Below, in pieces: positions 28,372 to 28,526 of a DNA stretch of 64,000 nucleotides. The notes beneath the pieces are model-generated. The model saw only the letters and a program-made list of their open reading frames with translations. It was not told where the DNA came from and made no database searches. The stretch comes from Escherichia phage PMBT16. The translations under genes and the position numbers were made by a program. The stretch is from sequence record PP554575; one strand, given 5' to 3'. Positions within the stretch are counted from its first letter, which is position 1. Every line of letters starts with the position of its first letter.

Positions 28372-28399
28372 ATTTTATCAGGATAGGCAAGAATGTCAA
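28372..28399 (-). promoter_or_regulatory. putative leftward sigma70-like promoter (TTGACA-N16-TAAAAT) firing into the gene-free region
   Basis: Minus-strand hexamers; 8-bp inverted repeat CATGACTG/CAGTCATG at 28401-28433 just upstream. Confidence 0.3.
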
Positions 28400-28526
28400 G
28401 GCATGACTGCTCACCAAACAAGCAAACAGTCATGTGTGGGAGGTAAGTGATTGTGGTGGTAGGAAATTTAGTTGAAAGATGTGTTATAGGTGCTCCCAGC
28501 ACTTTAGCCGGGTAGCTAATTGTGTG

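What the first reader, a model, noticed from the sequence alone, without database searches (positions are those of the whole stretch)
28372..28433. Possible leftward promoter and hairpin that would transcribe a non-coding RNA into the gene-free region
On the minus strand TTGACA-N16-TAAAAT lies just downstream of an 8-bp inverted repeat (CATGACTG/CAGTCATG). A transcript from here would run through G-rich sequence (GGGGGGAGGGGGG, complement of the C-tract) without any ORF of significant length.
Basis: inference. Interest (0 to 1): 0.4.

Follow-up and report, generated by a model that had tools for sequence, protein, structure and literature searches.

The report
Conserved phage promoter and noncoding RNA
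At the edge of the unexplained gene-free region of rV5-like E. coli phages sits what is very probably a real host-type promoter, followed by about 265 bases that do not encode protein yet are the most strictly conserved sequence in the neighbourhood, which points to an undescribed phage RNA gene.

Summary
The window is a Vequintavirus (rV5-like coliphage). The site lies at the right edge of the ~2.5 kb gap between convergent gene blocks, which the rV5 paper labels only "non-coding".

**Promoter.** The minus-strand TTGACA-N16-TAAAAT (28399-28372, 11/12, with TGn) is present. Matches of this quality sit about 35:1 on the coding strand across the window. In one divergent relative (L019) both hexamers are intact while the spacer has 7 substitutions and a 2-nt insertion.

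**Transcribed element.** Conservation resumes at the predicted start (~28365) and runs to the G6AG6 tract (~28101). Diversity there is 0.014, against 0.128 at third codon positions of flanking genes, with no codon periodicity and no supported ORF. The window's longest purine and pyrimidine runs bracket the element. In the RNA they form a 14-bp 5'/3' helix.

**Limits.** There is no Rfam match and no homolog outside the genus. The 8-bp hairpin is chance-level and lies upstream of -35, so it is not in this RNA.

**Verdict.** This is a probable new ~265-nt phage ncRNA gene. Its function is unknown, and no transcript data were found. A 2025 transposon study reports no insertions in this kind of gap. 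An R-loop or primer role at an origin is the main rival.

The parts
28372..28399 (-). Sigma-70-type promoter: -35 TTGACA (28399-28394), 16-nt spacer, TGn plus -10 TAAAAT (28377-28372)
   Evidence: 11/12, TG. (about 35:1 sense-strand bias for such sites in the window). (hexamers invariant in 22 genomes). (in L019 the spacer has 7 substitutions plus 2 inserted nt, giving N18, while the hexamers and TGn are unchanged).
28363..28368 (-). Predicted transcription start, about 28365 (7 nt after the -10)
   Evidence: Inference from promoter geometry. In L019, 3 of the 7 bases between the -10 and 28365 differ, and identity resumes at 28365.
28101..28365 (-). Putative ~265-nt non-coding RNA, the most conserved block of the 5.7 kb compared
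   Evidence: Diversity is 0.014, against 0.128 / 0.022 at 3rd / 2nd codon positions of 7 flanking genes, and there is no 3-periodicity. Identity is at least 97.2% in 117 GenBank genomes. There is no Rfam, tRNA or tmRNA hit. Small ORFs are not supported (and my codon reading). MFE is -82 kcal/mol, z = -1.61.
28351..28365 (-). 5' polypyrimidine leader (CUUCUCUUUUCUUUU), 5' arm of the predicted terminal helix
   Evidence: On the + strand it lies in the longest purine run of the window (28351-28367). It forms a 14-bp duplex with the G-tract at -15.3 kcal/mol, a value reached by 0.3% of equally spaced segment pairs.
28103..28118 (-). 3' purine/G-tract GAAGGGGGGAGGGGGG followed by UUUCUU. It is the 3' arm of the terminal helix and the sharp left boundary of conservation.
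   Evidence: It is the longest pyrimidine run on the + strand and holds the only two C6 runs in 64 kb. The conservation boundary is shown. Tract length varies between genomes (G4-7 A G5-7).
28337..28349 (-). Small promoter-proximal hairpin CCGAGUAAUUCGG followed by GUUUUCUGUU (weak terminator-like or pause element, or a 5' stem-loop)
   Evidence: It is invariant in all genomes. Its role was not tested.
28402..28434 (.). 8-bp inverted repeat CATGACTG / CAGTCATG with a 17-nt loop. It lies upstream of the -35, in the 3' UTR of the 71-aa gene.
   Evidence: chance-level frequency. 28402 varies C to G or A without compensation. In L019 one change gives A-U to G.U on the minus-strand RNA. The sequence is otherwise conserved. 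It has no U-run, so it is not a canonical terminator.
28000..28100 (.). AT-rich, neutrally evolving segment directly downstream of the G-tract, present as two unrelated alleles
   Evidence: Diversity 0.125. Window-type allele against the L004/L005/L029 allele.
26055..28526 (.). Gene-free gap between convergent gene blocks (the 'non-coding' box of rV5), the context of the element
   Evidence: The rV5 paper PMC3606486. No codon periodicity of substitutions. The HIDEN-SEQ preprint reports no transposon insertions in the ~2 kb convergent intergenic region of Bas54.

Best explanation
The site is a genuine host-RNA-polymerase (sigma-70, extended -10) promoter that starts transcription at about 28365 on the minus strand. 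The product is a discrete, untranslated RNA of about 265 nt, and the RNA itself is what selection preserves.

Proposed biogenesis (inferred). The RNA begins with a pyrimidine leader (CUUCUCUUUUCUUUU) and ends with GAAGGGGGGAGGGGGG followed by UUUCUU. The two ends pair into a roughly 14-bp G-C/G.U closing helix. That helix followed by a U-rich stretch would end or trim the transcript there and protect both ends. The G-rich, C-poor body (G 32%, C 16%) would be a poor Rho substrate.

Proposed mode of action (inferred). It works as a folded, free RNA made early in infection, for example as a partner or decoy of a protein. I infer this because nearly every nucleotide is constrained and the unit stays intact when both flanks are replaced.

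My probabilities: the promoter is functional, about 0.85. The 28101-28365 sequence is selected at the RNA level, about 0.7. It acts as a free RNA rather than as a cis-acting primer or R-loop, about 0.45 against 0.25.
For: Shown:
- Promoter match of 11/12 plus TGn.
- Equivalent matches in this genome are about 35:1 on the coding strand. The form TGnTAAAAT occurs in published rV5 promoters (P036, P051, P074).
- In L019 both hexamers and TGn are intact while the spacer has 7 substitutions plus a 2-nt insertion (16 to 18). The discriminator has 3 substitutions, and identity resumes at 28365.
- Diversity over 28100-28371 is 0.014, against 0.128 at third and 0.022 at second codon positions of seven flanking genes. 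The 100 nt beyond the G-tract evolve at 0.125.
- Identity is at least 97.2% across 117 genomes, while the adjacent 71-aa protein is mostly about 90% identical.
- Substitutions show no 3-periodicity. The 39-aa, 18-aa and 54-aa ORFs collect nonsense, frameshift and mostly non-synonymous changes. No PHROG or Pfam family matches them.
- The longest purine run and the longest pyrimidine run of the 64 kb bracket the element. They pair only in the minus-strand RNA: 14 bp, -15.3 kcal/mol, top 0.3% of equally spaced segment pairs.
- All six polymorphisms seen in two or more genomes are in predicted loops or keep the pair (G.U to A-U). The four pair-breaking changes are singletons. Overall, 10 of 15 variable sites are unpaired, against 37% unpaired positions.
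- The element is retained nearly unchanged in L019 and L029, whose flanks differ.
- Context: a saturated transposon library of a Vequintavirus has no insertions in the convergent ~2 kb intergenic region.
Against: - I found no transcript data for any Vequintavirus.
- Folding energy is only marginally better than shuffles: z = -0.98 for 28368-28095 and -1.61 for 28365-28101.
- There is no true compensatory covariation, because the element hardly varies. The secondary structure is therefore unproven.
- There is no canonical intrinsic terminator. The U-rich tail is weaker in the second downstream allele (UUACCUGCUU).
- There is no Rfam family and no homolog outside the genus, including the sister genus Septuagintavirus. 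Nothing known can lend it a function.
- Most known phage regulatory RNAs are dispensable in the laboratory (my own knowledge, not tested here). If the transposon result means this element is essential, a cis role becomes more likely.
- The transposon result has a caveat. I could not establish whether the selection marker carries its own promoter.
Confidence: 0.45

Rival explanations
1. Cis-acting primer or R-loop transcript of a replication origin. Host RNA polymerase starts at 28365. When it reaches the G6AG6 tract, the G-rich RNA stays hybridised to the C-rich template. The neighbouring AT-rich DNA opens, and the RNA (or the transcription itself) primes or activates phage DNA replication. 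The 5' leader / G-tract pairing would then be a switch between a released RNA and a persistent hybrid.
For: - The order is strong promoter, conserved RNA, G-tract on the non-template strand, then an AT-rich segment.
- The gap holds the lowest-GC kilobase of the window (0.377).
- The gap also holds an iteron-like cluster of TATTATGTYA.
- The whole ~2 kb gap of a Vequintavirus tolerates no transposon insertion. That fits an integrated cis-acting locus better than a trans-acting RNA.
- The sister genus keeps a C5TC5TC5 tract on the same strand of the same gap, next to AT-rich DNA.
- The resemblance to ColE1 RNA II, T4 oriF/oriG and mitochondrial CSB II is recalled from my own knowledge. It is a lead, not a test.
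Against: - The ~95 nt after the G-tract evolve neutrally and exist as two unrelated alleles, one of them only slightly AT-richer than the genome (my hand count from the sequences).
- The G-tract is predicted to pair with the RNA's own 5' end.
- No DnaA boxes lie in the gap.
- Forks leaving this site would meet both convergent transcription units head-on.
- GC-skew turns here are explained by gene orientation.
- In Septuagintavirus the conserved side of the tract is the opposite one, and no minus-strand promoter is evident.
Confidence: 0.25
2. A DNA-level cis element. The block would be a protein-binding platform for packaging (pac) or another DNA transaction, conserved as DNA. The promoter-like sequence would be incidental or merely part of that platform.
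For: - The gap is insertion-free in Tn-seq.
- Vequintaviruses package by headful from a pac site and are circularly permuted.
- Many database records and contigs begin or end inside the gap, some at the C-tract.
Against: - DNA-binding arrays are normally short conserved motifs with variable spacers, not 265 contiguous constrained bases.
- The element has no internal repeats.
- The hexamer-conserved, spacer-diverged pattern in L019 is the signature of a promoter.
- The end-to-end pairing works only in the minus-strand RNA, through G.U pairs.
- The record ends cluster about 1 kb away, at 27074-27140, on the TATTATGTCA repeats, not on this element.
Confidence: 0.1
3. The block is the 3' UTR or termination zone of the upstream minus-strand operon. 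The promoter match would contribute little. Conservation would reflect 3'-end formation or stability signals for the 71-aa gene's mRNA.
For: - The block directly follows the last gene of the minus-strand unit.
- No canonical terminator separates them.
- The inverted repeat at 28402-28434 is conserved as sequence.
Against: - 430 nt is far more than 3'-end signals need.
- The stretch nearest the gene (28441-28526) is the least conserved part, with diversity 0.051.
- Conservation restarts at the predicted transcription start in L019.
- The strand-bias argument for the promoter still applies.
Confidence: 0.07
4. One or more unannotated small proteins are encoded in 28100-28440. Candidates are the + strand 54-aa GTG ORF 28208-28372 and the minus-strand 39-aa GTG ORF 28172-28291.
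For: - These phages carry many genes of 30-90 aa.
- Some annotators call ORFs here (MiataMamis, JLBYU08, V18).
Against: - Diversity is below that of second codon positions, and there is no third-position excess.
- Observed changes in the candidate ORFs are mostly non-synonymous. They include stop codons (28264 in the 18-aa ORF, 28193 in the 39-aa ORF) and a 1-nt deletion in the 54-aa ORF.
- No PHROG or Pfam family matches.
- The candidates have poor or absent ribosome-binding sites.
Confidence: 0.03

Closest known systems
Early sigma-70 promoters of phage rV5 (Kropinski et al. 2013, Table S4), E. coli extended -10 class
   Same: Exact TTGACA, a 16-18 nt spacer, TGn and a TAnnnT -10. The form TGnTAAAAT also occurs in P036, P051 and P074. 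It faces the same way as the adjacent early gene block.
   Different: It is not in the published promoter list, which searched only upstream of genes. No ribosome-binding site or ORF follows it.
ColE1 RNA II primer (recalled from my own knowledge)
   Same: A host-polymerase transcript of a few hundred nt. A G-rich stretch meets a C-rich template, and DNA unwinding or synthesis follows downstream. The locus may be essential in cis.
   Different: There is no sequence or Rfam similarity. No antisense (RNA I-like) promoter is evident inside the element. The DNA after the G-tract is not conserved. The RNase H and polymerase steps are untested.
T4 oriF/oriG and the T7 primary origin: promoter plus downstream unwinding element (recalled from my own knowledge)
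   Same: A promoter directs transcription into an AT-rich segment. These are virulent phages with their own replisome.
   Different: Those origins do not need a long conserved transcribed segment. Here 265 nt are constrained while the AT-rich part is free to vary.
Mitochondrial CSB II (a G-run, A, G-run block that stops transcription and anchors the replication primer; recalled from my own knowledge)
   Same: The motif has nearly the same form: G6AG6 on the non-template strand followed by U/T-rich sequence, at the end of a promoter-driven non-coding transcript.
   Different: The polymerase (bacterial multisubunit) and the system are different. G-quadruplex or hybrid formation is untested. The G-tract can instead pair with the RNA's own 5' leader.
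Stable end-paired bacterial or phage RNAs such as 6S RNA (Rfam RF00013)
   Same: A size of a few hundred nt, 5' and 3' ends paired into a closing helix, and production by the host polymerase.
   Different: No match to 6S or any other of 4227 Rfam models, even at E up to 5. The predicted fold is multi-branched, not a rod with a central bubble.

Membership tests
Sigma-70 (RpoD) extended -10 promoter | -35 hexamer close to TTGACA | tested here: met
   TTGACA, 6/6. Invariant in 22 genomes.
Sigma-70 (RpoD) extended -10 promoter | -10 hexamer TAnnnT with a TGn motif one base upstream | tested here: met
   TGATAAAAT, 5/6 plus TG. Kept in L019.
Sigma-70 (RpoD) extended -10 promoter | Spacer of 16-18 nt whose sequence is free to vary while the hexamers are not | tested here: met
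   16 nt in the window. 18 nt with 7 substitutions in L019.
Sigma-70 (RpoD) extended -10 promoter | Transcription demonstrably starts about 7 nt downstream of the -10 | not testable with these tools
   No RNA-seq or TSS data were found for any Vequintavirus.
Intrinsic (Rho-independent) terminator, for the inverted repeat 28402-28434 | G+C-rich stem immediately followed by a run of U | tested here: not met
   The stem CAUGACUG has 4 G-C pairs of 8 and a 17-nt loop, followed by CCUUGACAUU. It was not reported by the terminator scan.
Structured RNA, any family | Base pairs maintained by compensatory substitutions | tested here: inconclusive
   Only 15 variable sites. One G.U to A-U change, no double compensations, four singleton pair-breaking changes. 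Shared polymorphisms all lie in loops.
Structured RNA, any family | Folding energy clearly below shuffled controls | tested here: inconclusive
   z = -0.98 and -1.61 for the minus strand, -0.21 for the plus strand.
Known RNA families (Rfam 15: 6S, tmRNA, RNase P, riboswitches, ribozymes, phage RNAs) | Covariance-model score at or near the gathering threshold | tested here: not met
   Zero hits at gathering threshold in 64 kb. At E up to 5, only chance-level hits, none in 28100-28440. No tRNA or tmRNA.
ColE1-type RNA-primed origin | G-rich RNA segment opposite a C-rich template, downstream of a constitutive promoter | tested here: met
   G6AG6 lies 250 nt downstream of the promoter. This is sequence only; hybrid formation was not tested.
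ColE1-type RNA-primed origin | Antisense regulator RNA (RNA I) transcribed from within the primer's 5' region | tested here: not met
   No + strand promoter-like site of at least 9/12 lies inside 28100-28370.
ColE1-type RNA-primed origin | RNA-to-DNA transition and origin activity at the site | not testable with these tools
   This needs marker-frequency analysis, 2D gels or primer mapping.
Iteron or DnaA-box type origin, for the gap as a whole | Clustered DnaA boxes | tested here: not met
   None of the 32 near-consensus boxes in the window lies in 26055-28526.
Protein-coding gene | Excess of substitutions at third codon positions and an intact ORF across relatives | tested here: not met
   Variable sites by frame are 6/5/6. 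Diversity is 0.014, below the 0.022 of second codon positions. Candidate ORFs acquire stop codons or a frameshift.

The most novel reading that the evidence does not exclude
The promoter, its 265-nt RNA and the G6AG6 tract are the priming module of the phage's replication origin. A host-polymerase transcript would be anchored as an R-loop by its G-tract next to easily melted DNA. Pairing of the G-tract with the RNA's own 5' leader would decide between release and priming. This would be a ColE1 / mitochondrial-CSB-II-like mechanism in a large virulent myovirus. It would also explain why the whole 'non-coding' gap tolerates no transposon insertions.
Probability: 0.25. Interest if true: 0.75.

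Novelty: new member of a known kind. Interest (0 to 1): 0.55.

Why it matters
rV5-like phages (Vequintavirus) are among the most frequently isolated E. coli phages and are used in therapy and biocontrol cocktails.

Their ~2.5 kb gene-free region has been drawn as a grey "non-coding" box since 2013. A 2025 transposon-sequencing preprint found it free of insertions and called it functionally important without saying why.

This analysis gives that region its first concrete, testable part:
- a promoter that behaves like the phage's real promoters;
- a sharply bounded ~265-nt unit that is more conserved than any neighbouring gene and is not protein-coding.

If it is a free RNA, it is a new phage RNA family, possibly an essential one. 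If it is a primer or R-loop, it locates the unknown replication origin of this phage group. In either case it is absent as a named feature from the genome annotations I inspected, and it should not be disrupted when these phages are engineered.

Tried and rejected
1. Known RNA families. Rfam at gathering and permissive thresholds, and ARAGORN, found nothing relevant.
2. Homologs outside the genus.
   - blastn with 11-nt words against 50,697 phage records found only Vequintavirus.
   - A search of complete E. coli genomes gave no match.
   - A scan of 185,579 bacterial species genomes for a 22-mer gave none.
   - IMG/VR and metagenome scans gave only 7 loci from close relatives, two of them the same contig.
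   - nhmmer against held loci of Seunavirus, Mydovirus and Septuagintavirus found nothing.
3. Synteny through the conserved regulator gene in PVP-SE1, 4MG and Seu621. That gene sits in a different context there, so those loci were uninformative.
4. Small-protein reading. Rejected on substitution pattern and absence of family hits.
5. The hairpin as a terminator or as part of the RNA. Rejected on position, composition and chance frequency.
6. CsrA-sponge idea. By hand I counted 6 GGA motifs against about 8 expected from composition, so there is no enrichment.
7. DGR template or second-copy idea. No second copy of the element lies in the window.
8. Antisense target. The only 16-nt complementarity in the window (30095-30110) is the stem of a GC-rich terminator, with E = 0.77, so I treat it as chance.
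9. DnaA boxes. None in the gap.
10. Literature. I found no Vequintavirus transcriptome. The Keio screen for LL12 does not mention rnhA, polA, hfq or rho.
11. Identifying the Bas54 record. Bas48, 52, 53, 55, 56 and 57 were retrieved and all show the same single convergent gap. The link to this locus is therefore an inference from shared architecture.

Full report
**What the window is.** A megablast of 26200-28600 finds 121 phage records, all rV5-like coliphages of the genus Vequintavirus, at 92-96% identity. Some of them are "UNVERIFIED Campylobacter phage" records. The window is the reverse complement of the rV5 reference. The rV5 terminator t164 matches the + strand terminator at 26038-26054. 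The rV5 promoter P162 matches the minus-strand site at 29223-29195.

**The gap.** Annotated relatives show + strand genes ending near 26018 and minus-strand genes ending at 28527, with about 2.5 kb of unannotated DNA between the two convergent blocks. The rV5 genome paper draws this as a box labelled "non-coding". It says that the bidirectional terminators expected between genes 163 and 164 were not found, and it attributes the skew change here to gene orientation (PMC3606486). Its promoter table searched only upstream of genes and does not list the present site.

**The observation.** On the minus strand, TTGACA (28399-28394), 16 nt and TAAAAT (28377-28372) match 11/12 with a TGn extended -10. 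This is the best site in 25500-30000. The inverted repeat is CATGACTG (28402-28409) / CAGTCATG (28427-28434) with a 17-nt loop. The G6AG6 tract is the complement of 28103-28115. The longest minus-strand ORF downstream of the start is 39 aa. All sequence statements are therefore correct.

**Is the promoter more than chance?**
- At the loose 9/12 level, promoter-like sites are only mildly enriched (19 against 12.1).
- My scan of the whole window for sites of at least 10/12 gives a clearer answer. About 35 distinct sites with an exact TTGACA lie on the strand that the rV5 map and the GC skew mark as coding for each block. Only one lies on the opposite strand. Chance matches would split evenly, so a match of this quality is nearly always functional here.
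- The form TGnTAAAAT is also found in published rV5 promoters.
- The best evidence is a natural experiment. In the IMG/VR contig L019, the -35, the -10 and the TGn are unchanged while the spacer carries 7 substitutions and a 2-nt insertion, going from 16 to 18 nt. Three of the 7 bases between the -10 and the expected start differ, and identity resumes at 28365.

**Is the inverted repeat more than chance?** No. About 28 such perfect 8-bp repeats are expected per 64 kb in shuffles. It has no U-run. Its outermost pair is lost in several genomes (28402 C to G or A). One change in L019 gives A-U to G.U on the minus-strand RNA, which is weak support at most. The repeat lies upstream of the -35, so it belongs to the 3' UTR of the 71-aa gene and not to the RNA made from this promoter.

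**What lies downstream of the promoter.** I aligned the window with 15 GenBank relatives chosen across the identity range, and later added 6 metagenomic or IMG/VR loci.
- The stretch 28100-28400 is the most conserved of the 5.7 kb compared.
- Nucleotide diversity over 28100-28371 is 0.014. In seven flanking genes it is 0.037, 0.022 and 0.128 at codon positions 1, 2 and 3.
- The 100 nt to the left of the C-tract evolve at 0.125 and exist as two unrelated alleles. The left boundary of the element is therefore sharp and falls at the G-tract.
- Across 117 GenBank genomes the element is at least 97.2% identical. The neighbouring 71-aa protein is mostly only about 90% identical at the amino-acid level.
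- Variable sites show no codon periodicity, 6/5/6 by frame.
- Reading the observed substitutions into the candidate ORFs gives mostly non-synonymous changes. There are stop codons in the 18-aa and 39-aa ORFs and a 1-nt deletion in the 54-aa ORF. These ORFs hit no PHROG or Pfam family.

The block is thus functional, non-coding, and begins where the promoter predicts.

**Anatomy of the putative RNA.**
- The longest purine run of the whole window (28351-28367) and the longest pyrimidine run (28103-28118, holding the only two C6 runs) sit at the two ends of the element.
- In the minus-strand RNA they become a 5' CU-leader and a 3' GA/G-tract. These pair over 14 bp at -15.3 kcal/mol. Only 0.3% of equally spaced segment pairs in the window reach that value. 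The pairing needs G.U pairs, so it exists only on the minus strand.
- The whole-molecule fold is -82 kcal/mol with z = -1.61. The plus strand gives z = -0.21.
- Variation is too scarce for covariation. Even so, all six polymorphisms shared by two or more genomes lie in predicted loops or convert G.U to A-U. The four pair-breaking changes are singletons.
- The G-tract is followed by UUUCUU in the common allele. No canonical terminator is present.
- The RNA is G-rich and C-poor. The next kilobase on that strand is C-rich (GC skew +0.16 on the + strand). From this I infer that Rho would stop any read-through there.

**Relatives and known families.**
- Rfam gives nothing at gathering or permissive thresholds, and ARAGORN gives nothing.
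- No similar DNA exists outside the genus in phage records, E. coli genomes or bacterial species genomes.
- The sister genus Septuagintavirus (LTH01, A5-4, A73, A7_1, W70) has the same convergent gap and a C5TC5TC5 tract on the same strand next to AT-rich DNA. There, however, the conserved side is the opposite one and includes a + strand TTGACA-N16-TATTGT. nhmmer finds no homolog of the element in that genus.
- In Seunavirus and Mydovirus the marker gene I used sits in a different context.

**Experimental context.** The HIDEN-SEQ preprint (bioRxiv 10.1101/2025.11.20.689424) built a saturated Himar1 library of the Vequintavirus Bas54. [quoted passage not shown] Six other BASEL Vequintavirus records all show this same single gap at gene index 0129-0134. 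I therefore take it to be this locus, though I did not retrieve the Bas54 record itself. One caveat is that I could not determine whether the selection marker has its own promoter. Vequintaviruses are reported as headful-packaged and circularly permuted.

**Interpretation.**
- Shown: the promoter match, its strand logic and its evolutionary signature; the extreme, non-coding constraint on 28101-28365; the boundaries of that block; and the end-to-end complementarity.
- Inferred: that the RNA is made, that the terminal helix forms and defines the 3' end, and what the RNA does.

I commit to a discrete early RNA that acts as a folded, free molecule (0.45). My reasons are that nearly every base is constrained, the ends pair, the DNA just beyond is free to vary, and the unit persists when the flanks are exchanged.

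The main rival (0.25) is a cis-acting primer or R-loop for an origin. In its favour are the order promoter, G-tract, AT-rich DNA, and the apparent essentiality of the entire gap. Its likeness to ColE1 RNA II, the T4 and T7 origins and mitochondrial CSB II comes from my own knowledge and is not a membership claim. Against it are the neutral downstream segment, the head-on geometry and the absence of DnaA boxes.

A DNA-only element, a 3'-UTR function and small proteins are less likely.

**Verdict.** The finding is a new, unannotated and probably important RNA gene of a well-known phage genus. It is a new member of a known kind, and no function can yet be assigned.

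Noticed in passing
window 26713-27375, especially 27049-27090: Iteron-like motif TATTATGTYA. 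All 4 exact copies in the 64 kb lie here, plus two inverted one-mismatch copies, and four tandem 10-bp units lie at 27049-27090. The adjacent 26850-27100 is hypervariable with indels. By my arithmetic, five independent GenBank records start or end at about 27074-27140. This is a candidate protein-binding array (pac or origin).
   Followed up: partly
window 27498-27792; L021 9386-9397: A second motif cluster on the + strand, GATATTTG(N)GG. Four of the 8 window matches fall within 0.3 kb. The 12-mer GATATTTGTGGG is identical in the Septuagintavirus gap, which is otherwise unalignable.
   Followed up: partly
window 28103-28115; L021 8895-8911: A C-tract (C6TC6 here, C5TC5TC5 in Septuagintavirus) marks a boundary between conserved and variable DNA in both genera, but the conserved side is opposite. 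Tract length varies between isolates. Contigs break at or near it: ODLN01010860 starts at about window 28121, and the UPEC06 record ends about 14 nt past the tract (L021 ~8925).
   Followed up: partly
window 28000-28100: About 95 nt left of the C-tract occur as two unrelated alleles (window type against L004/L005/L029), flanked by shared sequence, like a swapped cassette.
   Followed up: partly
window 26868-26913; L019 1160-1210: A ~45-nt unit with a GGTGAC/GTCACC hairpin (GAAGGGGTGACCTAGTCACCTGGCATAGCC) is present in only some genomes at this spot. In L019 it sits at a different place, upstream of the 71-aa gene. It may be a small mobile insert.
   Followed up: partly
window 26001-28000: GC skew is negative in 26001-27000 and positive in 27001-28000. 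Untranslated transcripts entering from either side therefore become C-rich. This would suit Rho-dependent termination of the two convergent units. 26001-27000 is also the lowest-GC kilobase of the window (0.377).
   Followed up: no
window about 26018-26060, against L001 2402-2821: The window lacks the 139-aa gene (navn_130 / bas53_0130 type, about 577 bp) that many relatives carry between the 87-aa gene and the gap.
   Followed up: partly
records MG0656xx (for example L005): About 18 'UNVERIFIED Campylobacter phage' records are near-identical Vequintavirus genomes. This is probably a mislabelled host or contamination.
   Followed up: no
window 28527-28742 (-): The 71-aa gene next to the element belongs to PHROG 12108 (unknown function). 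It is restricted to the genus and is clearly more variable than the non-coding element beside it.
   Followed up: partly
window 28027-28040 (+): TTTGTGTGGTAAAC resembles the rV5 'late promoter' motif (TGTGGTAAAATA type) and points toward the element on the + strand. It is deleted in L004/L005, so it is not conserved.
   Followed up: partly
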